A DNA stretch of 47,581 nucleotides, taken from NCBI GenBank assembly GCA_002505355.1, contig DAUW01000076.1, positions 970 to 48,550 on the forward strand, in the 5' to 3' direction. Shown here piece after piece: positions 1,577-21,168 of the stretch (positions are counted from its first letter, which is position 1; every line of letters starts with the position of its first letter). The notes beneath the pieces are model-generated. The model had not been told where the DNA came from, ran no database searches, and worked only from the letters and a program-made list of their open reading frames with translations. A program made the position numbers and the translations under genes. The stretch comes from Euryarchaeota archaeon UBA229 (lineage in GTDB: Archaea > Thermoplasmatota > Poseidoniia > Poseidoniales > Poseidoniaceae).

Positions 1577-2617
1577 TTATTCTTCTTCATACGGTTGGGC
1601 GTCAATCAACGGCGAATCGCCATCTTCAATCACACCCATCTCATCCAAGTGAGACTCGAAATCGGGTAGTTCGATATTCCAATTTTTTGGAAGTTTGTTC
1701 TTTTCTTCAACAATTATTAGCATTCTTTCTTGCCATGCAACAGGTTTTCTTTGCAAGATATACATGTAAAGGACCGAGGTTCGAATCTCCTCTGATATTA
1801 TGCTGTAGCCTGAGGACGACTCGAAATTCATGGCTCTTAATAGATTAAACGCTGGTCTGTTAATCGTTCTGAACATATTCTTGGTAAACCTCATACCAGC
1901 AATCACTGCAATAAAGATAACAACGCTGGTTAGACAGAAAGCAGCAAGTCCTTCTCCTGCTAAGAAATTTGATAAAACAATCACGCCAAACAAAACTGGA
2001 ACAGTAATTAGCATGAAGATAGTTGTCTCGGATACTGGTGCCTTGCGCATTTTTGACTCTATTGCTAACCACCCTGGATGACGCTTTTCCCATGGTTTGA
2101 AGTGTTCATTTGAATTCTGCTGTACTGCCGTATTGAAAAGCCCCAGTAGTTGATGTACGCGTCCATACTGGCTGGTGGCGACATCCATGTTCTCGTTTAG
2201 TATCGTCTCTATTCGCTCACGACCTTCTGCGTACAAGCCAAGGTCTGCCAAGATTGTGGCTTGTTCAATCAGCGGTGTGACCTCGTAGGGAGCATGAAGT
2301 CTGACTTGTTGCCACCAATCGAGAGCGTCAATCATTAAACCAAGTTCATCGGCTAATAGTCTGCCACCGCGAACCCACATATCGATTCTTGTTGGGTCTA
2401 ATTTTACGATTGTCTTGACTGCAGTAAGCGATTTTGAAGCTTCGATAAGGCTTGCTGCCTTGCCATCAGCCAATAAATGGGCATCGGAAATTAGCTGCCA
2501 AGCATCGACATGTTCAGGGTCCAACTTGACTGCCTTGTAAGCCATGGCTAATGCGACATCTCGGTCTCCTTTGTCCAGTGCTTCGATGGCATCTAAGTAG
2601 TGATTCTCAGCACTCAT
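1577..2617 (-). CDS. Membrane protein with an N-terminal TPR-like helical-repeat domain; function unknown
   Basis: 346-aa ORF. The N-terminal ~190 aa look like helical repeats (AMAYKAVKLDPEHVDAWQLISDAHL). Two central hydrophobic helices follow (TIFMLITVPVLFGVIVLSNFL; AAFCLTSVVIFIAVIAGM), then an acidic C-terminus PYEEE. Convergent with ahcY. Confidence 0.55.
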   Translation of the reverse strand: MSAENHYLDAIEALDKGDRDVALAMAYKAVKLDPEHVDAWQLISDAHLLADGKAASLIEASKSLTAVKTIVKLDPTRIDMWVRGGRLLADELGLMIDALDWWQQVRLHAPYEVTPLIEQATILADLGLYAEGRERIETILNENMDVATSQYGRVHQLLGLFNTAVQQNSNEHFKPWEKRHPGWLAIESKMRKAPVSETTIFMLITVPVLFGVIVLSNFLAGEGLAAFCLTSVVIFIAVIAGMRFTKNMFRTINRPAFNLLRAMNFESSSGYSIISEEIRTSVLYMYILQRKPVAWQERMLIIVEEKNKLPKNWNIELPDFESHLDEMGVIEDGDSPLIDAQPYEEE

Positions 2618-2642: not shown

Positions 2643-3512
2643 TTAATCATCGCGATTTCTCTTTCTCGACCGTGCTTTCAGTGGTTGAGGTCCTCTGTTG
2701 TGCGCATGATTTGCTGATTTACCCTTAGCCCTGCGGAATCTTCGGTTAGCATCATCTGATCGGTTTTGCTTCGGTCTTCCACCATTCCCTCCTCGACTAG
2801 GGGGTTTTGATGTTCTTGATTGGCCATGCTTAGGCTCGCCGCACCTGTTACATTCAGTTCTGAATGAAAAGTTGACGTTACCACAATTGTTGCAGGTCCA
2901 GTCGTTGTCAGCAAATGTTTTCTTTGGGCTGTTTCTATTTCGAGCTTCTCTGTTCCTTGAGTCTCTATTATTCCCGTGCCTTGAGCCATCACTGCCGCGA
3001 CGATTCGAATCGCGAAACTGGGAGTCTCTACGAAAATTATCTCGACGTTGGCGACTAAAGTTTTCATTTCTGTTGTCTCGGCGACCGCCTCCTGAATTTT
3101 CCCGGCGGTTATCTCGACGATGGTTCCTAGAATCAGGGCGTCTGTTATCTCGCCAGTGTGAACCTCGCTGATTGTCACGATGTGTTCGCTCATTGCGTCC
3201 ACGATTGTCTCGATACCGAGAATCATTCCTGTCGCTTCGTTGATAGTCAGACCTGTCACGATTTTCACCCCGAGGGGTCTTTGCGCGAATTTGCGCGTCG
3301 CAGCCGATGAAAATATCTGGGTTCATTTTTCTATCAAGGTGGGCAATATGGGCGATTGGGTTATCTGTACCACCGAGAACTGCGTCAATTTTGCCAATGT
3401 AGGTTCCATCGTCAACTTTCACTATGATAGAGCCAAGTGCTGGTGAAGACCCGGTGAACGGTGCCAAAAGTCCACCTTCGTGGCTTAGTGATTCAATAGT
3501 TGCCTTGAACAT
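2643..3512 (-). CDS. gar1: H/ACA RNP subunit Gar1 core fused to an Arg/Asp/Asn-rich low-complexity linker and a RanBP2-type zinc finger
   Basis: Residues 1-78 resemble archaeal Gar1 (small beta-barrel; IGKIDAVLGGTDNPIAHIAHL...IFIGCDAQI). Residues 81-199 are RDNR/RSD repeats. Residues 205-224, WTCNNCGNVNFSFRTECNRC, fit W-x-C-x2-C-x3-N-x6-C-x2-C exactly. A basic tail follows. Confidence 0.75.
   Translation of the reverse strand: MFKATIESLSHEGGLLAPFTGSSPALGSIIVKVDDGTYIGKIDAVLGGTDNPIAHIAHLDRKMNPDIFIGCDAQIRAKTPRGENRDRSDYQRSDRNDSRYRDNRGRNERTHRDNQRGSHWRDNRRPDSRNHRRDNRRENSGGGRRDNRNENFSRQRRDNFRRDSQFRDSNRRGSDGSRHGNNRDSRNREARNRNSPKKTFADNDWTCNNCGNVNFSFRTECNRCGEPKHGQSRTSKPPSRGGNGGRPKQNRSDDANRRFRRAKGKSANHAHNRGPQPLKARSRKRNRDD
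2916..3272 (-). repeat. Coding low-complexity region (Arg/Asp/Asn/Ser-rich degenerate RDNR repeats) inside the Gar1 fusion gene
   Basis: Translation reads RGENRDRSDYQRSDRNDSRYRDNRGRNERTHRDNQRGSHWRDNRRPDSRNHRRDNRRENSGGGRRDNRNENFSRQRRDNFRRDSQFRDSNRRGS... The composition also produces long spurious ORFs in other frames (2678..3268, 2872..3171). Confidence 0.85.
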
Positions 3513-3532: not shown

Positions 3533-5506
3533 TTATTCCTCGTCTCTACGAACAAGCGCTGCTCCAAATAGGGCGATAGAAATAGTAGCGAGCATAGAAA
3601 TGCTTGGCAATGCACTAACGTCATCACCACTGGTATCATCATCAGATGCAGTACCGTCGTTGGATGAATCCTGTGCATCAGGGTCTTCAACATTGACTTC
3701 CAGTATGCTATTGATATTTGATTCATCAGTTGCGGTTATGATTACGTCATATGTGGTAATTTCCTGCATGACACATGTGGCAATAGAGACGTCTATTTCC
3801 CAGTTAATGCCTACCTGGGTGAAGTCGGTTGCGCTTGCTCCACAAAGTTGCAAAGTCATTGATACACTTTCTCCGTCAGGGTCAGATACAGTACCTTTCA
3901 GCGTAAATTGTAGCCCAGTTGCGTCCCATGTTGCGTTATTACCGTCGAAACTGGTGCGCAGAGAAATGATTGGTGGTAGGCTTTGTTTTTCTAGTCCAAA
4001 GTCAAATACATAATCAAAATTCATCATGTTGTTAGCAGTGGCACTACCCATAACCATCACCATTCCTGGCTTTAGACCGTCCATCGGTAAAGCAATAGTA
4101 ATTGGTTCATTACTTGCCATCGAAGAACGCATGGCCCCCATAACTCCATCTTGGTGTGCATGGGCGCTGACCGTCATTTCAGCTACCAAACCTGTTGGTG
4201 TGACGGTGTAGTCTATATTTTCCCCGTCAGTGATACTCGCTGCGGCAGTGAATGGCTGTCCAAAGGTGAAATCTAGTGTCTCATCTGCGGTAGCGCCAAA
4301 GGGATCTACTACGCTGCAAGTGGCTGATGATGTGCTGGTGCCCGAGGGGGAGGTAATCAATAAATTTCCAGACTCATCTTGTCTTGATTCCCAACCAGCA
4401 TCAGTAAACGAACAGTCAAGATTCCATCCATTAGAATCGGTTGCCCAACCGGACAATTCGTCCGCAGCGATAGTGAGATATTCGGTACCAGTCATTAGAG
4501 GGATGATTGAGTTATTTGCTGGTTTCATATTGGTCCATTCTGGGATATCATTCGATTCAGGCTCTGCGGTGGTGAAATCTATGAACAGGTTTCTTCCGAC
4601 CGGCCAATTAGATTTGTCATAATCAACATGCTGGTATATTCTCAGTTTACCATCGGGGAGGAATTCTTCCTCTGGTGCAGTGTAGTCTAGTCCTTCAACA
4701 AGCTCGGCACCGTCGTCTTCCATACCAAAGCCGGCGATTCTCAACCCTTGCAGTGCAGGGAATGTCATGACTAGGTCAGCATTAGTCATGTTAGTGACGT
4801 TCAGCGCTAGAGTAAAGTTGGACACTCCTTGGTTTGGTAACTGGTCAAACCTCATATTGTTATTTTCACCAGTTTTGACGAAGAGGCTAATCTGTAGGTC
4901 ATCGGTGGCGGCAACAGGGATTTCCTTGCAATCAGCTGATGCACCAAAGTTAGTACATGAACGCTCTTCTGGGTGGTTTGGCGCAACTAAGTCCACTTCG
5001 TCGAGAGCTATTCCCTCCTCGACAAATTCGAGGTCATTCCATGCAACACCGCTGTTAGTTCGGTGTGGGACGCCTTCCCTAATACCAAGTCTAGTTTCCA
5101 TATCTTCAATGCACATTGGTCCGATTTCTCGGACTGCTTCTCGCTCATCAGTACTAATCCAGCCGTTATCACCGCCAGGTGCACCATCGAATAATCCATC
5201 CAAATTTTCTCGCACAGTAGCCGAGTTGCTGCCGTTGACAAAAGCGGTTGCATCCATTTCTGCCGTAGCCCAATCAGCACCAATATCTATGTTGAATAAG
5301 GCGAAATTGTAATCGAACAGGTCTTCAAAGGTATAGCCTGAGCAATCGACATCAGACAGGCCACTACTTCCCTGTCGACCTTCGGTTTCTACCGGTTGGT
5401 TAACCGTTAATTCAGGTGCGGTAACTCCGCTGGATAAACCCATCATAATCATCATAACTAGCATGGTTATTGCGGTGACTGGAACATAGTAACTTCTAGT
5501 TGCCAT
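3533..5506 (-). CDS. Large secreted or cell-surface protein with an N-terminal signal/anchor, an Ig-like DPDG module and a C-terminal TM anchor
   Basis: 657-aa ORF with a hydrophobic N-terminus (VTAITMLVMMIMMGLSSGVTAPE) and an acidic, Thr/Ser/Asp-rich body. A near-C-terminal module reads GTVSDPDGESVSMTLQL. The C-terminus is LPSISMLATISIALFGAALVRRDEE (TM helix plus basic/acidic end). It lies downstream of the ABC-2 genes on the same strand. Confidence 0.65.
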   Translation of the reverse strand: MATRSYYVPVTAITMLVMMIMMGLSSGVTAPELTVNQPVETEGRQGSSGLSDVDCSGYTFEDLFDYNFALFNIDIGADWATAEMDATAFVNGSNSATVRENLDGLFDGAPGGDNGWISTDEREAVREIGPMCIEDMETRLGIREGVPHRTNSGVAWNDLEFVEEGIALDEVDLVAPNHPEERSCTNFGASADCKEIPVAATDDLQISLFVKTGENNNMRFDQLPNQGVSNFTLALNVTNMTNADLVMTFPALQGLRIAGFGMEDDGAELVEGLDYTAPEEEFLPDGKLRIYQHVDYDKSNWPVGRNLFIDFTTAEPESNDIPEWTNMKPANNSIIPLMTGTEYLTIAADELSGWATDSNGWNLDCSFTDAGWESRQDESGNLLITSPSGTSTSSATCSVVDPFGATADETLDFTFGQPFTAAASITDGENIDYTVTPTGLVAEMTVSAHAHQDGVMGAMRSSMASNEPITIALPMDGLKPGMVMVMGSATANNMMNFDYVFDFGLEKQSLPPIISLRTSFDGNNATWDATGLQFTLKGTVSDPDGESVSMTLQLCGASATDFTQVGINWEIDVSIATCVMQEITTYDVIITATDESNINSILEVNVEDPDAQDSSNDGTASDDDTSGDDVSALPSISMLATISIALFGAALVRRDEE

Positions 5507-8476: not shown

Positions 8477-10675
8477 ATGATGAGGACGAAATTACCTGTG
8501 ACAATGATATTAATAACGCTCCTTTCTGCAAGCCTTGCGGGCTGTGTTGGGAACGAAGATGAAGCGAGTACCTCAGCCTGTACCGGCGATGAGTTGAAAG
8601 TTGCCTTTGATGTGAAGGACGATTTAACACCAGAATCAATTGATAATCCAAACAGAATCGCCAGTTACCTGTGTGACAAGTTGGGTATGGATGTCACCAT
8701 ATATGACGTCGACAGCGCAGCATTAGCAATGGAGGCGCTAAGATTCGGCAATGCCGATATCGCCATGAACATTGACGGTGGACCAGCATGGGTTGGATGG
8801 AATGCCTACGACTTAGAGGTGATGGCTGCAGATACCAAGGATGACGGCAGAGCATTCTATAACGCACATGCCTGGGTTTTACAGGGTAGCGAAATGGAAA
8901 TTGCGCTCAATGACGGCGATGATAACACAGATCCGTTCGCCCTACTCGAGGGGAAGACCTCATGTCACACCGGCTGGTTGAAGTCTGCAGGAATGTTGAT
9001 GCCAATGGGATATTTGATTGGTAATGGCTACGTGAATGTTCAGGGAGACCTGTCAGATACAGAGACACTTAGAACGACTATCAGCGAATATTTTGACGGA
9101 TCAACCGGAAAAGGTAACCCGGCCTCAATCCCAGTAAGTGGCGGTCTGTATTCAGGCTATGCTGGAGCATTAGAATGCTTGAGTGAGGGCTATGGTGACG
9201 TGGCATTTGCTAAAGATTCAACAGTCGGCTCGTACTGTGATAACGAAGACGTCAACGATAATTCAGATTGGTGTTTGGACATAAGCCAGTACGTTCCGCT
9301 ACCAAAGTTTGGTTCCTCTCCATCCCACTCGGTAATGTACAATGAAGAGGTATTAGCTGAGGATAAAGAACAAGCTATCAAGGATGCCTTGGTTGAAATG
9401 AAGAATGATGAAGAAGGTCTAGCAATTTTACAAGAGGTTCTTGGTACTGATGCAATGGTCGCAACAAACTCCCAAGAACACCTTGGTACCTATGGTGCAG
9501 CATTGGAAAACATACCCGGGATTTCCACAAAATACGGTAATGCATTCGATGGTGGTAACGCCTTATCTGAAATCAAGTCAACAATAACCATAGCGTATTA
9601 CCTTGCTGAAGATTCATCAGCAAATGCCAACGCCATCGGTATGGCTGAGAGATTAGAGAATGAACTTGGAGTAAACGTAGAATTGTATGATGTTTCATCG
9701 GAAGGTATGATCATTCAAGCTCTAAGATTCGGCAATGCAGACATTGGTTTCATGGAGGGTGGTCCAGCATGGATTGCCTGGAAGGAGTATGATCTACAGG
9801 TCTTAGCAGTTGAAACAACAACTGCAGAGCGAGATACTTACTACAACGCAGCGGCATGGGTCCTAGCGAATAGTACTATGGCACAATATCACTTAGATGG
9901 TGATGCAACAACCGATCCATTTGCTGAGCTGGCTGGAAAAACCTCATGCCATACTGGTTGGTTGAAATCTGCGGGAATGTTAATGCCGATGGGTTACATG
10001 ATTGGTAATGGATATGTAACTCCAGTGGGAGATACTGAAGATATCAATTCGCTGAGAGACACCATCAACGGCCATTTTGACGGCTCAACAGGTGCAGGAA
10101 ATCCAGCATCTATCCCTGAAAGTGGTGGCTTATATTCTGGATATGCTGGGGCTCTTGAATGCTTGAGTGAAGGCTATGGTGATGTGGCATTTGCTAAAGG
10201 TGATGAATTCTCAACAGTTCACAAATATTGCGATAATGAAGATTCCAACGACAATTCTGATTGGTGTCTATCATTGGATCAGTACGTCCAACTACCTGCC
10301 TGGGGTTCTTCTCCAAGCCATCCAATAATGTACAACCCTGAAACACTTGATGTGAGAACTAGAAACGCAATCCTGAATACAATGCTTAGTTGGAATGATG
10401 AAATGTGGGTCCAAGATTACGAAATGAATGGAGTAAATTACACTGGCTGCTACAACACTGTAACAAATGTAGTTGCTGATATTCCTCAAGTACAATGTGG
10501 TGGGGAGATTCTTTCCACTGTCACCAGCAAAGGATATGGTCTTGCGGCAGGCAACAGCCAGAATCATTTAGGAAGCTATTCTGATTTGTTATCTGCAATA
10601 CCAGGTTTGTCAAAGTATTATCATGACGAGAAATACGGTATAACAGATGCTGCATCTGAAACTAGTGAGTCTTAG
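8477..10675 (+). CDS. Bilobal (tandemly duplicated) transferrin-like substrate-binding lipoprotein of an ABC importer
   Basis: Signal peptide plus lipobox (LLSASLAGC, Cys23). Two homologous halves are offset by 328 aa. Each half carries ALRFGNADI..(D/E)GGPAW, (F/Y)YNA.AWVL, GKTSCHTGWLKSAGMLMPMGY, GLYSGYAGALECLSEGYGDVAFAK and SSPSH, which are collinear with vertebrate transferrin lobe motifs. PhnC/PhnE-like genes follow. Confidence 0.85.
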   Translation: MMRTKLPVTMILITLLSASLAGCVGNEDEASTSACTGDELKVAFDVKDDLTPESIDNPNRIASYLCDKLGMDVTIYDVDSAALAMEALRFGNADIAMNIDGGPAWVGWNAYDLEVMAADTKDDGRAFYNAHAWVLQGSEMEIALNDGDDNTDPFALLEGKTSCHTGWLKSAGMLMPMGYLIGNGYVNVQGDLSDTETLRTTISEYFDGSTGKGNPASIPVSGGLYSGYAGALECLSEGYGDVAFAKDSTVGSYCDNEDVNDNSDWCLDISQYVPLPKFGSSPSHSVMYNEEVLAEDKEQAIKDALVEMKNDEEGLAILQEVLGTDAMVATNSQEHLGTYGAALENIPGISTKYGNAFDGGNALSEIKSTITIAYYLAEDSSANANAIGMAERLENELGVNVELYDVSSEGMIIQALRFGNADIGFMEGGPAWIAWKEYDLQVLAVETTTAERDTYYNAAAWVLANSTMAQYHLDGDATTDPFAELAGKTSCHTGWLKSAGMLMPMGYMIGNGYVTPVGDTEDINSLRDTINGHFDGSTGAGNPASIPESGGLYSGYAGALECLSEGYGDVAFAKGDEFSTVHKYCDNEDSNDNSDWCLSLDQYVQLPAWGSSPSHPIMYNPETLDVRTRNAILNTMLSWNDEMWVQDYEMNGVNYTGCYNTVTNVVADIPQVQCGGEILSTVTSKGYGLAAGNSQNHLGSYSDLLSAIPGLSKYYHDEKYGITDAASETSES

Positions 10676-17272: not shown

Positions 17273-18985
17273 ATGCAGATGTTATGGCATTTCTCTAGAC
17301 CAACTGGCGATTCGCTCGATGACTCATCAAAGTTAGGGGGCATATGGAACCAAGTGAAAAAATTACGTTATGACGTCTTTGCTCAAGAGTTACAACAATA
17401 TCCGGAAAATGATCAGGGTTTGCTAGACGACCCGGGAGAGCATTTCATTGTCATACTTGAGGGGAATGAGTTAGTTGGCTATATCAGTTTGAACTCACCA
17501 ACCATAGAGGAATATCGTCTTACCAAATATTTCGGTAATGAAATTTTATCTCTGATAACTGCTGAGTATGGAGCGGAGCAGAATTTGTATGAAGTCCGAG
17601 GTTTGACTGTCACGCCATCTCATCGTGGCCGAGGTACTGCCCGACAATTGATGCTTGGTGCGTTGAAATACACTCTGCAAAATGGTGCAGACGGCATAAT
17701 TGCCATGGGTCATGATAGAGTTTTGCCTATGTACGAAAGTATTGGCATGAGGGTTTTCCATAATCATTCTACGACGGCGGGAAATATTGTATTTTATCCA
17801 ATGACGGCATCTGTTGCGAAACTCTGCCAATCCGTTGGTGAGGAGCTGAATCAAGTCGACTTAACTGAGCAACAGGCCCAAGATGAGTCATGTTATCATG
17901 GTGGTGCCTCATGGGACGAGAGCGGTTTTGATTTTATTCGAAGAAATCAATTGATTGTCGCTGATGTACTCGACAGCCCATTTCCACCCTGCCCTGAGGT
18001 TATGGATGTTATTTCGAGAAACTTGATTAGCAGTTGTCAAGAATCTCCACCGACACTATGCGACCCTCTTATCGATAAAATTGCCCAAGTACGTCAACTT
18101 GCCAAGCAGAGTATTCTTGTTTCATCAGGCTCTTCATCACTGATGTTTTCTTTAATGCCTCGATTACTCACTGAGCAATCTCGAGTATTAGTATTATCAC
18201 CAATGTATGGTGAATATTTACACATACTCACTCACATAATTGGCTGTCACATCACCCATTTTTCACTATATCCGGAAGATGGATTCGCTATTCAGGTTGA
18301 TGACTTTATTGATTTAGCGCGTAGACATGATGCTGTTATAATTGTGAACCCAAATAGTCCTACAGGAGTTTATAATGATAAATTGAGCAGTGCAATTGAC
18401 AGAATTTTGTCAAATAAATTTAGTAAAACTCAATGCAAGATGATTTGGGTTGATGAGACATACATCGAGTACGTAGAGGGGGCCGAATCACTAGAAGGGC
18501 TGACCTCAGTTTATGATGAACTGATTGTTTGCAAAAGCATGAGTAAATGCTACGCATTGTCTGGATTAAGAGTCGCTTACGCAGTCACTAAAAAGGCACC
18601 ACAATTACGACGATATATTCCTCCGTGGGCGGTTAGTCTACCGGCTCAAATTGGCGCTGTTGCCGCACTATCAAACCCTGAATACTACCATAAGCAATAT
18701 CTTACCGTACACAGTAATCGAGAACTTCTCAATCAGGAATTAATTGAACTTGGTTTTACTACATATCCGAGTGTGGCAAATTATATTTTAGCTCAATTAC
18801 CACCGGCGGTGACTCATAGCTCACAGCAGTTTATCGCTTTGTGTCGAGAGCAGGATGTGTTCATTAGGGATGCTGAAAATATGGGTATTACGTTAGACTC
18901 GAGTTATGTACGATTTGCTGTAAGGTCTATTGAAGAGAATGTTAGAATAATTGATTGTCTAACTAAACTGCTAACAGCATACTAG
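17273..18985 (+). CDS. Fusion protein: N-terminal GNAT-like acyltransferase plus a C-terminal class I/II PLP aminotransferase/decarboxylase (HisC/CobD-like)
   Basis: N-terminal part: LRYDVFAQELQQY, ELVGYISL and VTPSHRGRGTARQLM (acyl-CoA-binding Q/R-x-x-G-x-G/A). C-terminal part: IIVNPNSPTG and the PLP-lysine block SMSKCYALSGLRVAY. Confidence 0.75.
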   Translation: MQMLWHFSRPTGDSLDDSSKLGGIWNQVKKLRYDVFAQELQQYPENDQGLLDDPGEHFIVILEGNELVGYISLNSPTIEEYRLTKYFGNEILSLITAEYGAEQNLYEVRGLTVTPSHRGRGTARQLMLGALKYTLQNGADGIIAMGHDRVLPMYESIGMRVFHNHSTTAGNIVFYPMTASVAKLCQSVGEELNQVDLTEQQAQDESCYHGGASWDESGFDFIRRNQLIVADVLDSPFPPCPEVMDVISRNLISSCQESPPTLCDPLIDKIAQVRQLAKQSILVSSGSSSLMFSLMPRLLTEQSRVLVLSPMYGEYLHILTHIIGCHITHFSLYPEDGFAIQVDDFIDLARRHDAVIIVNPNSPTGVYNDKLSSAIDRILSNKFSKTQCKMIWVDETYIEYVEGAESLEGLTSVYDELIVCKSMSKCYALSGLRVAYAVTKKAPQLRRYIPPWAVSLPAQIGAVAALSNPEYYHKQYLTVHSNRELLNQELIELGFTTYPSVANYILAQLPPAVTHSSQQFIALCREQDVFIRDAENMGITLDSSYVRFAVRSIEENVRIIDCLTKLLTAY

Positions 18986-20016: not shown

Positions 20017-21168
20017 ATGGTCGACACCCAAAGGTATGCTAGACACATTACTCTCCCGGATGTCGGTATTAAGGGGCAAGAATTAATCGATAATTCCAAT
20101 GTTCTAGTTGTAGGCGCTGGTGGATTAGGCAGCCCAGTATTGATGTATCTTGCAGCAGCAGGAGTAGGACACCTTGGGATAATTGACGATGATGTTGTAG
20201 ACCTATCAAATCTTCAGAGACAGATAATTCATACTGAGAGCCAAATTGGTGTAGCTAAGGTTGACTCAGCGAAAGCCAGAATTTCCGCAATAAATTCTGC
20301 TATTAAGGTAACAACTTGGAACGAGCGACTATCTCCCGACAATGCGCGTGAAATCTTCACTGGCTGGGATCTTGTTGTTGACGGTACTGATAATATCCCA
20401 ACGCGCTATCTTGTTGATGATATGTGCAATACTCTCGGAATTCCATGGGTATATGGCTCAATCTATAGATTTGAAGGCCAGGTTAGTCTTTTCAATTATA
20501 ATGGCGGACCGTGTTATCGCGACTTGTTTCCCGAACCACCACCAAATGATATGGTGCCCTCATGTGCTGATGGTGGCGTATTCGGCGTCTTACCAGGAGT
20601 TGTTGGAGCAATTCAAGCAACTGAAGCGATTAAGGTGATACTAGATAAAAATCAATCATTGTCGGGTAAGTTGTTACTTTATGATGCAGACAATATGACG
20701 TTTAGAACGCTAAATTTTTCCAAAAACCCAGCGACAAAACCCGACTTGGCTGAAGTAAGGCAGATGTTTGAGGAGCAGGGTTGGTGTGTTAATCAAGCGA
20801 TTAAAGGAGGTCAATTTGAAGAACCGTCGACCGCACGTGGGGCCATGTTCAATCATTTGTCGGTTGCCGAGTATCAACAACGTCGAGCCGCAGGCTGGCA
20901 ACCATTTTTGATTGATGTTCGCTCAAATAATGAGTATGCGCAGGTTAAGGTTTCATTTACTGATCTGCAAGTGCCCCATGAAGAGATCCTATCAATCCAA
21001 GATCAAATTCCCGATGACAAGGACATAATTTTGCTCTGTCGCAGCGGTATGCGTTCACAAATGGCAGCAATGTATTTGCTTAATGCGGGTTTTTCGGGCA
21101 CTCGTTTGTTCAATTTTGACGGTGGTATCTTGGCTTGGAGTAACCATTTACCGGCAGATATCGAATAA
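20017..21168 (+). CDS. moeB: ThiF/MoeB/UbaA-family E1-like adenylyltransferase with a C-terminal rhodanese domain
   Basis: RYARHITLPDVGIKGQ, VVGAGGLGSP, DDDVVDLSNLQRQ and CADGGVFGVLPG. The C-terminal rhodanese domain has the active-site loop CRSGMRS. Confidence 0.88.
   Translation: MVDTQRYARHITLPDVGIKGQELIDNSNVLVVGAGGLGSPVLMYLAAAGVGHLGIIDDDVVDLSNLQRQIIHTESQIGVAKVDSAKARISAINSAIKVTTWNERLSPDNAREIFTGWDLVVDGTDNIPTRYLVDDMCNTLGIPWVYGSIYRFEGQVSLFNYNGGPCYRDLFPEPPPNDMVPSCADGGVFGVLPGVVGAIQATEAIKVILDKNQSLSGKLLLYDADNMTFRTLNFSKNPATKPDLAEVRQMFEEQGWCVNQAIKGGQFEEPSTARGAMFNHLSVAEYQQRRAAGWQPFLIDVRSNNEYAQVKVSFTDLQVPHEEILSIQDQIPDDKDIILLCRSGMRSQMAAMYLLNAGFSGTRLFNFDGGILAWSNHLPADIE

What the first reader, a model, noticed from the sequence alone, without database searches (positions are those of the whole stretch)
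2643..3512. Archaeal Gar1 fused to an Arg-rich low-complexity linker and a ZRANB2-like RanBP2 zinc finger
The first ~78 aa look like the archaeal H/ACA pseudouridylation subunit Gar1, normally a ~75-100-aa stand-alone protein. Here it continues in frame into ~120 aa of RDNR/RSD repeats. Then comes DWTCNNCGNVNFSFRTECNRCGEPK (W205-C224; nt 2841-2900). This fits the RanBP2-type finger consensus W-x-C-x2-C-x3-N-x6-C-x2-C exactly. It is strikingly close to the ssRNA-binding fingers of human ZRANB2 as I recall them (...CGNVNFARRTSCNRCG...). A basic tail follows. Eukaryotic Gar1 is flanked by Gly/Arg-rich domains. RanBP2 fingers are regarded mainly as eukaryotic RNA- or ubiquitin-binding modules. An archaeal Gar1 with an Arg-rich region and this finger suggests an added RNA-recruitment function on the H/ACA RNP.
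Basis: partly seen in the sequence, partly recalled or inferred. Interest (0 to 1): 0.7.

Follow-up and report, generated by a model that had tools for sequence, protein, structure and literature searches.

The report
Archaeal Gar1 with RNA-binding zinc-finger tail
Marine Group II archaea (Poseidoniales) encode their Gar1-type pseudouridylation subunit as a long protein with an arginine-rich disordered tail, one to four eukaryote-style RanBP2 RNA-binding zinc fingers and a conserved end motif, contradicting the textbook view that archaeal Gar1 is a bare ~100-residue core.

Summary
ORF 2643-3512 (minus strand, 289 aa) is real. It is encoded identically in three independent assemblies and conserved in at least 177 Poseidoniales species genomes.

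- **N-terminal domain (residues 1-78):** a very divergent Gar1. It fails the Pfam and NCBIfam cut-offs. Two AlphaFold models superpose on P. furiosus Gar1 (TM 0.85-0.88, rmsd 1.3-2.1 A). A profile-profile comparison gives 90% probability (E 1.5e-6).
- **Linker (79-199):** predicted disordered. It is 31% Arg with only 7% Gly and no RGG, so it is not a eukaryotic-type GAR domain.
- **Finger (202-228):** a RanBP2-type finger of the RNA-binding subclass. Six of the seven ZRANB2 RNA-contact positions are conserved, and the seventh is aromatic, as in FUS.
- **C-terminal motif (259-289):** FRRAKGK..NHAHN..P, strongly conserved.

The architecture is order-wide, with two fingers the most common number.

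Not tested: whether this is the only Gar1 in these genomes, whether it binds Cbf5, and whether the finger binds RNA.

I found no paper describing it. Database pipelines label only the separate parts.

Verdict: a new variant of a known kind, of moderate to high interest.

The parts
2643..3512 (-). Whole gene: 289-aa Gar1-like protein with an Arg-rich tail, a RanBP2 finger and a C-terminal motif (stop codon 2643-2645)
   Evidence: ORF list and translation. Identical product in three independent assemblies. 342 homologs in the protein database. 177 species-representative genomes carry a relative.
3279..3512 (-). Residues 1-78: divergent Gar1-type six-stranded beta-barrel
   Evidence: AlphaFold2 pLDDT 92. 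Foldseek top hits are 2ey4_D/C and 2hvy_B (P. furiosus Gar1), TM 0.81-0.88, rmsd 1.3-2.1 A, followed by eukaryotic Gar1 and Naf1. hhalign against a Thermococcales Gar1 profile: 90%, E 1.5e-6. Sub-threshold Gar1 HMM hits only. 22 invariant positions among 24 non-redundant homologs.
2916..3278 (-). Residues 79-199: Arg-rich, mixed-charge, predicted disordered linker (R31 N16 D12 S11 G7 %)
   Evidence: Composition and charge +19. pLDDT below 50 across 84-199. Length and sequence vary among homologs while the composition is kept. No tandem repeats.
2829..2909 (-). Residues 202-228: RanBP2-type C4 zinc finger of the ssRNA-binding subclass (DNDWTCNNCGNVNFSFRTECNRCGEPK)
   Evidence: Pfam PF00641 26.6 bits, E 3.5e-6. 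PDB matches to ZRANB2, ZNF265, RBM10, FUS and RBM5 fingers. pLDDT 83-91. Contact residues D204, N212, V213, F215, R218 and N222 are conserved. F217 replaces ZRANB2 R81, as Trp does in FUS.
2739..2828 (-). Residues 229-258: second short disordered spacer rich in basic residues, Gly and Ser
   Evidence: pLDDT below 50 across 232-257. Variable in the alignment.
2646..2738 (-). Residues 259-289: conserved C-terminal motif F-R-[RK]-A-[KR]-G-K-x3-H-A-H-N-x2-P ... R-N-R-D-D, function unknown
   Evidence: Invariant R260, G264, K265, H269, A270, H271, N272, P275 and D288 in alignment A2. Present in 127 of 221 family proteins, many of which are fragments, and in 57 of 65 complete species genes. pLDDT 62-69. 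No Pfam or PDB match.
3533..5506 (-). Upstream neighbour, 20 nt away on the same strand: conserved 657-aa uncharacterised protein with hydrophobic N- and C-terminal segments (context, not shown to be functionally linked)
   Evidence: No Pfam or NCBIfam hit. The same gene, 657-677 aa, sits directly upstream of the Gar1-like gene in both Poseidoniales families.
1577..2617 (-). Downstream neighbour, 25 nt away on the same strand: conserved 346-aa protein that is TPR-like with predicted transmembrane segments (context)
   Evidence: Weak TPR hits only. A 331-352-aa gene is in the same position in loci L001-L008.

Best explanation
This gene is the Poseidoniales (Marine Group II) version of Gar1, the small subunit that binds the catalytic domain of the pseudouridine synthase Cbf5 in box H/ACA ribonucleoproteins and controls substrate loading and product release.

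In this order the ~78-residue Gar1 barrel has diverged strongly. It has been extended at its C-terminus by three things:
- a long, disordered, arginine-rich region;
- one to four RanBP2-type zinc fingers of the kind that read GGU-like triplets in single-stranded RNA;
- a conserved terminal peptide.

The proposed mechanism is as follows. The barrel docks on Cbf5 as in the P. furiosus complex. The flexible cationic tail and its fingers reach out and hold single-stranded RNA near the enzyme. That RNA could be substrate rRNA or tRNA, or the guide RNA. This would raise local RNA concentration and add multivalent, partly sequence-selective RNA binding, which canonical archaeal Gar1 lacks because it makes no RNA contact.

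Shown here: the gene and its frame, the Gar1 fold and remote homology, the finger and its conserved RNA-contact residues, the predicted disorder of the linker, and order-wide conservation.

Inferred: binding to Cbf5, RNA binding by the finger, GGU-type specificity, and a role in pseudouridylation.
For: **Fold.** Two independent AlphaFold2 models put P. furiosus Gar1 first, then 10-15 eukaryotic Gar1/Naf1 chains, ahead of any other fold.

**Sequence homology.**
- hhalign of a 55-sequence Poseidoniales N-domain profile against Thermococcales Gar1 gives 90.2% probability, E 1.5e-6, over 69 columns that cover the whole barrel.
- Gar1 is the only Pfam family hit by all 24 N-domains, and Gar1 equivalogs are the only NCBIfam hits.
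- Hallmark positions line up with P. furiosus Gar1: H11, G14-L-L, P24-x-L, and G40-x-[IV]-D-x-V-x-G...P52.

**Orthology-like behaviour.**
- About one locus per genome in 177 species-representative genomes.
- Conserved synteny in both families of the order.
- JGI/IMG already names some members 'rRNA processing protein Gar1'.

**Finger.**
- Matches to the RNA-binding ZRANB2, RBM10, FUS and RBM5 fingers.
- Across 251 fingers of the family, the ZRANB2 contact positions are D 251/251, N 239/251, aromatic 251/251, R 251/251 and N 238/251.
- The contacts themselves are defined in PMC11789483.
- Arg-to-aromatic at the seventh position keeps GGU specificity in FUS and EWS (PMC6384913).

**Background biology.** Gar1 binds Cbf5 but not the guide RNA, enhances catalysis and is critical for product release (PMC7991803, PMC4551948).
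Against: - The N-domain fails every curated Gar1 threshold.
- A profile search of the PDB sequences does not find Gar1.
- An exhaustive HMMER search of 1.84 billion representatives reaches only 121 proteins. Those whose source could be looked up are Poseidoniales, and none is a recognised canonical Gar1. Homology therefore rests on fold and profile-profile evidence.
- I could not check whether a canonical Gar1 also exists in these genomes.
- No Cbf5, Nop10, L7Ae or guide RNA lies in this window. Their presence in Poseidoniales is only indirectly suggested: CBF5 is one of the 122 archaeal markers used for the order.
- The neighbours are membrane or surface-type proteins with no RNA connection.
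- Nothing here measures RNA or Cbf5 binding.
Confidence: 0.6

Rival explanations
1. It is a Gar1-fold paralog, not the working Gar1. The barrel may have been re-used in an RNA-binding protein with another job. One option is a Naf1-like assembly chaperone for Cbf5. Another is an H/ACA-independent factor for ribosome biogenesis or RNA metabolism. A canonical Gar1 would then sit elsewhere in the genome.
For: Extreme sequence divergence: below all curated Gar1 cut-offs, and no HMMER bridge to canonical Gar1 among 1.84 billion representatives. Naf1 shows that the Gar1 fold can be redeployed, and Naf1 chains are among the structural matches. No H/ACA partner is nearby.
Against: Archaeal Gar1 matches better than Naf1: TM normalised to the target is 0.85-0.88 against 0.54-0.63. 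The gene is single-copy, order-wide and syntenic, as expected of a core informational gene. No second Gar1-like ORF is in the window, though that covers only about 2% of a genome.
Confidence: 0.2
2. It is the true Gar1, but the tail acts mainly as a non-specific polycationic, multivalent scaffold. It might be an RNA chaperone or a condensate former that concentrates H/ACA particles on nascent rRNA, much like the nucleolar GAR/RGG domains of eukaryotes. On this view sequence-specific reading by the fingers is secondary.
For: The linker keeps its composition but not its sequence or length: 243-516 aa overall, tail 20-29% Arg. It is predicted disordered. Finger number varies from 0 to 5. Some members have finger-less RGG-like tails, for example P0195 and P0183.
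Against: The RNA-contact residues of the fingers are almost invariant across 251 fingers. That argues for selection on base-specific contacts, not on charge alone. 63 of 65 complete species genes keep at least one finger.
Confidence: 0.12
3. The finger is a protein-binding module, not an RNA-binding one. It could be ubiquitin-like or SAMP-binding, as in the NZF/TRABID class. Alternatively it is only a structural zinc ribbon.
For: RanBP2-type fingers include ubiquitin-binding members (PMC6384913). The Pfam score is marginally below the cut-off. Weak hits to generic zinc ribbons and to ribosomal proteins eL37 and bL32 appear in the lists.
Against: The best matches are all RNA-binding fingers. 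The aromatic stacking residue and the Asp, Asn and Arg contacts are conserved. The Lys/Ser substitutions that mark the non-RNA-binding ZRANB1 finger are absent. From my own knowledge of the family, the Thr-Phe dipeptide typical of NZF ubiquitin binders is not present (the sequence here is C-G-N-V-N).
Confidence: 0.06
4. The long protein is an assembly or gene-calling artefact that joins a short Gar1 gene to an unrelated downstream ORF.
For: Low-complexity DNA is prone to indels. One long-read contig shows the gene split into 93-aa and 59-aa ORFs. A few species loci show low-Arg tails that look frameshifted (L014, L016).
Against: The identical 289-aa product is found in three independent short-read assemblies. 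The finger and the C-terminal motif are conserved in frame in 57-63 of 65 complete species genes. All three ordered modules are under clear purifying selection.
Confidence: 0.01

Closest known systems
Archaeal Gar1 (e.g. Pyrococcus furiosus Gar1; PDB 2ey4, 2hvy, 3hay)
   Same: Same six-stranded barrel of about 75 residues (TM 0.85-0.88, rmsd 1.3-2.1 A). Same N-terminal position in the protein. Same hallmark positions: His near the N-terminus, P-x-L, and G-x-V-x-D-V-x-G...P. A basic C-terminal extension is present in both.
   Different: About 20% identity, and it fails the curated Gar1 HMM cut-offs. The canonical proteins are 90-128 aa with only a short Lys-rich tail. This one carries about 210 extra residues with a disordered Arg-rich linker, a zinc finger and a conserved end motif.
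Eukaryotic Gar1/GAR1 with flanking Gly/Arg-rich (GAR, RGG) domains
   Same: A Gar1 core attached to a cationic, Arg-rich, low-complexity region. Some Poseidoniales members have genuinely Gly/Arg-rich tails, up to 23% Gly, with GGYRGGGDRR-type repeats.
   Different: In this window's protein the extension is on the C-terminal side only. It is Arg/Asn/Asp/Ser-rich (Gly 7%, no RGG) and contains zinc fingers, which eukaryotic Gar1 lacks. The review literature states that archaeal Gar1 lacks GAR regions (PMC7991803).
ZRANB2 (ZNF265/ZIS): two RanBP2 fingers plus an Arg/Ser-rich domain
   Same: Finger sequence 15 of 29 identical to finger 2 and 17 of 31 identical to finger 1. The GGU-contact residues D, N, V, aromatic, R and N are conserved. 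Fingers are combined with an Arg-rich low-complexity region.
   Different: The first Arg of the Arg-Arg pair is Phe here. The fingers are attached to a Gar1 barrel, not to a splicing-factor scaffold. The host is an archaeon without spliceosomal introns.
FET proteins (FUS, EWS, TAF15): RGG - RanBP2 finger - RGG
   Same: The core N-F-S-[FW]-R of the finger matches FUS N-F-S-W-R. A finger is embedded between disordered Arg-rich segments. In FUS and EWS the aromatic substitution still gives GGU binding.
   Different: No RRM, no prion-like domain and no PY-NLS. Here the fingers are repeated up to five times and are joined to an enzyme-complex subunit.
Naf1 (eukaryotic H/ACA assembly factor with a Gar1-like domain)
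   Same: A Gar1-fold barrel embedded in a larger protein with disordered regions. It is among the structural matches (2v3m, 2eqn).
   Different: Poorer structural match than archaeal Gar1. Naf1 is not known in archaea and has no zinc fingers.

Membership tests
Gar1 (Pfam PF04410; NCBIfam Gar1 equivalogs NF009627-NF009634) | Scores above the curated profile cut-off | tested here: not met
   Pfam gives 11.7 bits for the full protein and 15 bits for the isolated domain, against 29.3. The best of 24 homologs reaches E 2.3e-4. NCBIfam gives 14-27 bits against 103-156. This is an operational criterion, not a biological one. The hits are consistent and exclusive to Gar1 but sub-threshold.
Gar1 (Pfam PF04410; NCBIfam Gar1 equivalogs NF009627-NF009634) | Gar1-type six-stranded beta-barrel that superposes on solved Gar1 | tested here: met
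   The models have pLDDT 92 (domain alone) and 88-91 (in the full-length context). Top PDB hits are 2ey4_D/C and 2hvy_B with TM 0.81-0.88 and rmsd 1.3-2.1 A over 75-77 columns. The next 10-15 hits are eukaryotic Gar1 or Naf1.
Gar1 (Pfam PF04410; NCBIfam Gar1 equivalogs NF009627-NF009634) | Sequence homology to canonical Gar1 over the whole core | tested here: met
   hhalign profile-profile: 90.2%, E 1.5e-6, columns 8-79 against 6-76. Profile against the single P. furiosus sequence is in register at E 0.006. HMMER alone does not bridge the gap.
Gar1 (Pfam PF04410; NCBIfam Gar1 equivalogs NF009627-NF009634) | Binds the catalytic domain and thumb loop of Cbf5 | not testable with these tools
   No multimer prediction or biochemistry is available here. 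The Poseidoniales Cbf5 sequence was not retrieved.
Gar1 (Pfam PF04410; NCBIfam Gar1 equivalogs NF009627-NF009634) | Is the only Gar1-family gene of the genome (orthology), alongside Cbf5, Nop10, L7Ae and H/ACA guide RNAs | tested here: inconclusive
   There is no second Gar1-like ORF, no partner gene and no Rfam RNA in the 47.6-kb window. There is about one locus per genome in 177 species genomes. CBF5 is a marker used for the order. Whole genomes could not be scanned.
RanBP2-type zinc finger (Pfam PF00641), ssRNA-binding subclass | W-x-C-x(2-4)-C-x3-N-x6-C-x2-C with four Cys ligands | tested here: met
   WTCNNCGNVNFSFRTECNRC at residues 205-224. Chance expectation is 4.7e-5 per window.
RanBP2-type zinc finger (Pfam PF00641), ssRNA-binding subclass | Scores above the Pfam gathering cut-off | tested here: inconclusive
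   26.6 bits against 27.0, E 3.5e-6, for this protein. Most of the 120 listed homologs carry a precomputed PF00641 call. PDB finger matches reach E 5e-6.
RanBP2-type zinc finger (Pfam PF00641), ssRNA-binding subclass | Aromatic stacking residue plus the Asp/Asn/Arg/Asn base contacts defined in ZRANB2-GGU | tested here: met
   D204, N212, V213, F215, R218 and N222 are conserved. The R81 equivalent is F217, an aromatic residue as in FUS and EWS, which still bind GGU.
RanBP2-type zinc finger (Pfam PF00641), ssRNA-binding subclass | Zinc-dependent binding of GGU/GGN single-stranded RNA | not testable with these tools
   Needs biochemistry such as SELEX, RBNS or ITC.
Eukaryotic GAR / RGG domain | Gly- and Arg-rich sequence with repeated RGG or RG motifs | tested here: not met
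   The linker is R 31% but G only 7%, with zero RGG and four RG. Other family members are closer, with tail Gly up to 23% and GGYRGGGDRR repeats. For this protein the resemblance is functional and compositional only.

The most novel reading that the evidence does not exclude
Poseidoniales have independently built, or inherited from an old archaeal stock, a eukaryote-like RNA-handling module made of Arg-rich disordered segments plus GGU-reading RanBP2 fingers, as in FUS and ZRANB2. They have bolted it onto the H/ACA pseudouridylation enzyme. Substrate choice would then be partly protein-encoded. The fingers would recruit Cbf5-Nop10-Gar1 to specific single-stranded sites in rRNA or tRNA. This would strengthen or partly replace guide-RNA targeting, building on the known guide-independent activity of archaeal Cbf5 that Gar1 enhances. 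The multivalent tail would organise a nucleolus-like condensate in an archaeon. The conserved C-terminal HAHN peptide would be a docking signal for a further, unknown partner.
Probability: 0.12. Interest if true: 0.85.

Novelty: new variant of a known kind. Interest (0 to 1): 0.55.

Why it matters
Gar1 is a universal archaeal and eukaryotic subunit of the RNA-guided pseudouridine synthase. The accepted picture is that archaeal Gar1 is a bare core, that it makes no RNA contact, and that Arg-rich extensions are a eukaryotic addition (PMC7991803).

Here an entire order has a Gar1 with a long Arg-rich disordered tail and RanBP2 fingers. This order is one of the most abundant archaeal groups in the surface ocean. 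The fingers carry the RNA-reading residues known from human ZRANB2 and FUS.

If the tail works as proposed, three things follow:
- It gives a natural experiment on what cationic low-complexity tails and modular ssRNA fingers add to an H/ACA particle.
- It extends the RNA-binding RanBP2 finger, usually treated as eukaryotic, to Archaea.
- It offers compact archaeal fingers, 251 natural variants in the proteins collected here, for RNA-binding protein design.

It also matters for annotation. Current pipelines call these proteins 'hypothetical' or only 'zinc finger Ran-binding domain-containing', so Poseidoniales genomes may appear to lack Gar1.

Tried and rejected
1. **Tandem repeats in the linker.** TRF finds none. 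The 'repeats' are compositional.
2. **Direct HMMER links to Gar1.** A PDB profile search with the N-domain alignment finds no Gar1. An exhaustive search of 1.84 billion representatives reaches only 121 family members and no canonical Gar1.
3. **True stand-alone short forms in the family.** The 93-aa P0182 lies on a long-read contig, and its Arg-rich tail continues in the +1 frame. It is probably an indel error.
4. **The C-terminal HAHN motif as a relative of the N-terminus of ribosomal protein eL29.** This was my own recollection. There is no PDB or Pfam hit at E up to 10, and hhalign gives 0.8%. Rejected.
5. **A bridge to canonical Gar1 through the most canonical-looking outlier, P0205.** The last word-indexed search returned nothing.
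6. **Canonical Gar1 diversity.** The search with P. furiosus Gar1 returned only Thermococcales, so the comparison profile is narrow.
7. **H/ACA partners or guide RNAs in the window.** None were found: no Rfam hit, no tRNA, and only metabolic genes.
8. **Literature.** No paper in the held library links Gar1 with Poseidoniales, or RanBP2 fingers with archaeal Gar1.
9. **Structural match for the finger or C-terminal motif.** Foldseek with the full-length model returned only barrel matches.
Full report
**What is there**

The minus-strand ORF 2643-3512 encodes a 289-residue protein that starts MFKATIESLSHEGG. It lies 20 nt downstream of a 657-aa gene and 25 nt upstream of a 346-aa gene on the same strand.

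The window is a piece of a Marine Group II (Poseidoniales) archaeal genome:
- The identical protein is found on a 107-kb TARA scaffold and in two other independent assemblies, with the same neighbours.
- All named homologs come from Poseidoniales, Poseidoniaceae or 'Euryarchaeota archaeon' metagenome-assembled genomes.
- The rest of the window holds ordinary metabolic genes: AdoHcy hydrolase, ABC transporters, riboflavin synthesis, a ThiF-rhodanese protein, 2-oxoacid dehydrogenase E1, isocitrate dehydrogenase, a xanthine-dehydrogenase-type molybdoenzyme and MoxR.
- It has no tRNA, no Rfam match and no Cbf5, Nop10 or L7Ae.

**Checking the observation**

- The finger string WTCNNCGNVNFSFRTECNRC occupies W205-C224 (nt 2841-2900).
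- The RanBP2 consensus is expected 4.7e-5 times by chance in the six-frame translation of the window and occurs once.
- The stretch between the two folded parts (residues 79-199) is 31% Arg, 16% Asn, 12% Asp, 11% Ser and 7% Gly, with net charge +19. The whole protein has pI 11.3.
- The stretch is a compositional bias and not a tandem repeat.
- The continuous frame is not an artefact. Three independent assemblies give the identical product. Of 65 complete genes recovered from species-representative genomes, 63 keep at least one finger in frame and 57 keep the C-terminal motif.

**Is the N-terminal domain Gar1?**

Sequence profiles alone do not settle it.
- Pfam Gar1 scores 11.7 bits on the full protein and 15 bits on the isolated domain, against a cut-off of 29.3.
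- NCBIfam Gar1 equivalogs score 14-27 bits against cut-offs of 103-156.
- A profile of 24 non-redundant N-domains finds no Gar1 among PDB sequences.
- In an exhaustive HMMER search of 1.84 billion representative proteins, that profile reaches only 121 proteins, none of them a recognised canonical Gar1.

On the other hand:
- Gar1 is the only family that all 24 domains hit, and Gar1 equivalogs are the only NCBIfam hits.
- An AlphaFold2 model of the domain (pLDDT 92) has P. furiosus Gar1 as its three best PDB matches (2ey4_D, 2ey4_C, 2hvy_B; TM 0.81-0.86, rmsd 1.6-2.1 A over the whole domain). A run of insect, yeast and human Gar1 and Naf1 chains follows before any other fold.
- The barrel in an independent full-length model gives the same result (TM to target 0.86-0.88, rmsd 1.3-1.8 A).
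- I confirmed the P. furiosus Gar1 sequence against PDB 2hvy_B and collected 83 Thermococcales Gar1 proteins.
- I then compared a 55-sequence Poseidoniales N-domain profile with an 18-sequence Thermococcales profile. hhalign gives 90.2% probability and E 1.5e-6 over 69 columns that span the whole barrel. The hallmark positions are in register.

I conclude that residues 1-78 are a highly divergent Gar1-type barrel. It fails the operational HMM thresholds but meets the fold test and the profile-profile homology test.

**The finger**

- Pfam Zn_ribbon_RanBP scores 26.6 bits (E 3.5e-6), 0.4 bit under the gathering score. Most homologs carry a precomputed PF00641 call.
- The best PDB sequence matches are all RNA-binding RanBP2 fingers: ZRANB2 finger 2 (E 5e-6), ZNF265/ZRANB2 finger 1, RBM10, FUS and RBM5.
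- In the ZRANB2-GGU complex the base contacts are Asp68 and Arg81 (G1), the Val77 backbone and Arg82 (G2), and Asn76 and Asn86 (U3). Trp79 stacks between the guanines (PMC11789483).
- The equivalents here are D204, F217, V213, R218, N212, N222 and F215. Six of the seven are conserved.
- The Arg81 position is Phe. FUS and EWS have Trp at that position and still select GGU (PMC6384913).
- Across 251 fingers from the collected family members these positions are almost invariant: D 251, N 239, F/Y 251, R 251 and N 238. The seventh position is F 182, W 29, R 28 and K 10.
- The finger is confidently modelled (pLDDT 83-91).

This is the signature of the ssRNA-binding subclass, not of the ubiquitin-binding one.

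The last 31 residues are not just 'a basic tail'. The motif F-R-[RK]-A-[KR]-G-K-x3-H-A-H-N-x2-P, followed by a basic stretch and an acidic end, is among the most conserved parts of the protein.
- Invariant positions are R260, G264, K265, H269, A270, H271, N272, P275 and D288.
- It is present in 57 of 65 complete species genes.
- It has intermediate model confidence, pLDDT 62-69.
- It matches no Pfam family or solved structure.
- My suspicion of a link to ribosomal protein eL29 was not borne out.

Its role is unknown. A short docking peptide for a partner protein or RNA is the obvious guess.

**It is a lineage trait, not an oddity**

- 342 database proteins match.
- 177 species-representative genomes encode a relative, essentially one locus each.
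- A more distant branch from Thalassarchaeaceae and other Poseidoniales has the same barrel with Arg/Lys/Gly-rich tails, with or without fingers.
- Among complete species genes the finger count is 0 (2 genes), 1 (10), 2 (42), 3 (8) and 4 (3). A five-finger protein exists in the protein set.
- Lengths run from 243 to 516 aa, with a median of 341.
- Canonical Thermococcales Gar1 is 90-128 aa, with a median of 102.
- The window's single-finger, Asn/Asp-rich form is a minority variant. Many relatives have Gly-richer tails, up to 23% Gly, and some have GGYRGGGDRR-type repeats very like eukaryotic GAR/RGG domains.
- The order 657-aa protein, Gar1-like gene, ~340-aa TPR/membrane protein is conserved in both families of the order. 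General synteny is also conserved there, so this need not mean a functional link.

**How it most likely works**

Established knowledge: Gar1 binds the catalytic domain of Cbf5, does not touch the guide RNA, enhances catalysis, and promotes product release through the thumb loop (PMC7991803, PMC4551948).

My best explanation, with confidence about 0.6, has two parts:
- The barrel does this same job in Poseidoniales.
- The flexible cationic tail and its fingers add multivalent, partly sequence-selective binding of single-stranded RNA, with GGU or GGN triplets as the expected preference. This would tether substrate or guide RNA near the enzyme.

Shown:
- domain identities
- conservation of contact residues
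- predicted disorder of the linker
- phylogenetic spread

Inferred:
- Cbf5 binding
- RNA binding and its specificity
- any effect on pseudouridylation

**Rivals**

- It is a Gar1-fold paralog with another role, Naf1-like or H/ACA-independent. Confidence is about 0.2. This is the main uncertainty, because I could not scan whole genomes for a second Gar1.
- The tail is mainly a non-specific scaffold or condensate former. Confidence is about 0.12.
- The finger binds protein, not RNA. Confidence is about 0.06.
- The long protein is an artefact. Confidence is about 0.01.

**Comparison with what is known, and novelty**

The protein works like a Gar1 joined to the C-terminal half of a FET or ZRANB2-type RNA-binding protein.
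- It meets the structural and remote-homology tests for Gar1 but not the curated HMM cut-offs.
- It meets the motif and contact-residue tests for RNA-binding RanBP2 fingers.
- Its linker does not meet the definition of a GAR/RGG domain.

The standard statement is that archaeal Gar1 proteins 'lack both GAR regions' and conserve only the central domain (PMC7991803). No paper in the searchable library connects Gar1 with Poseidoniales or with RanBP2 fingers.

Automated pipelines have seen the pieces. JGI/IMG labels some members 'rRNA processing protein Gar1/predicted nucleic-acid-binding Zn-ribbon protein'. NCBI labels some 'zinc finger Ran-binding domain-containing protein' and most 'hypothetical'.

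I therefore rate it a new variant of a known kind. It is a real, order-wide and apparently undescribed architecture of a well-known protein, of moderate to high interest. Its functional meaning still has to be tested.

Noticed in passing
window 2646-2738 (-), residues 259-289: Strongly conserved C-terminal peptide FRRAKGKSANHAHNRGPQP...RNRDD (invariant R, G-K, H-A-H-N, P, D). It has no match in Pfam or the PDB. It is present in 57 of 65 complete species genes. A possible docking motif.
   Followed up: partly
window 3533-5506 (-) and 1577-2617 (-): The Gar1-like gene is flanked at 20 and 25 nt by two uncharacterised genes. One is a 657-aa protein with hydrophobic N- and C-terminal segments and no family hit. 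The other is a 346-aa TPR-like protein with predicted membrane segments. The trio keeps its order in both Poseidoniales families.
   Followed up: partly
window 2678-3268 (-): A 196-aa ORF in another frame lies wholly inside the Arg-rich coding region. It is almost certainly a by-product of the biased composition, not a gene.
   Followed up: no
L004 8001-8458 (ERZ28548091 north_1__contig_21628_pilon, 2.5 Mb): The Gar1-like gene is split into 93-aa and 59-aa ORFs, and the Arg-rich tail continues in the +1 frame. This is probably a long-read indel error. Such errors can make these genes look like short stand-alone Gar1.
   Followed up: partly
L030 (CALDQY010000298.1) and L060 (NZEQ01000076.1): Contigs that carry this Poseidoniales gene are binned into MAGs labelled Rhodobiaceae bacterium and Verrucomicrobiales bacterium. 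This is likely bin contamination.
   Followed up: no
L042 and L045 (MAG RS440, PBUZ01000088.1 and PBUZ01000010.1): One MAG carries two loci with the gene (334 and 350 aa). This could be strain heterogeneity in the bin or a real duplication.
   Followed up: no
proteins P0201, P0208, P0210, P0217 (distant Poseidoniales branch): A variant finger, W-x-C-P-K-C-x-N-H-N-Y-A-S-K-x-x-C-N-R-S-x-C, occurs in place of the standard RanBP2 pattern or beside it. It has Tyr at the stacking position and a different C-terminal half.
   Followed up: no
proteins P0188 (1361 aa) and P0231 (3525 aa): Two very long proteins match part of the N-domain profile (positions ~10-48) in eight or nine repeated stretches. 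It is unclear whether this is a repeated barrel fragment or a compositional match.
   Followed up: no
window 8477-10675 (+): A 732-aa protein has duplicated transferrin-like/phosphonate-binding periplasmic domains next to ABC transporter genes. It is conserved near the Gar1 locus across Poseidoniales.
   Followed up: no
window 17273-18985 (+) and 20017-21168 (+): Two fusion proteins: a GNAT acetyltransferase joined to a class I/II aminotransferase (570 aa), and a ThiF/MoeB E1-like domain joined to rhodanese (383 aa, Uba4/MOCS3-like layout).
   Followed up: no
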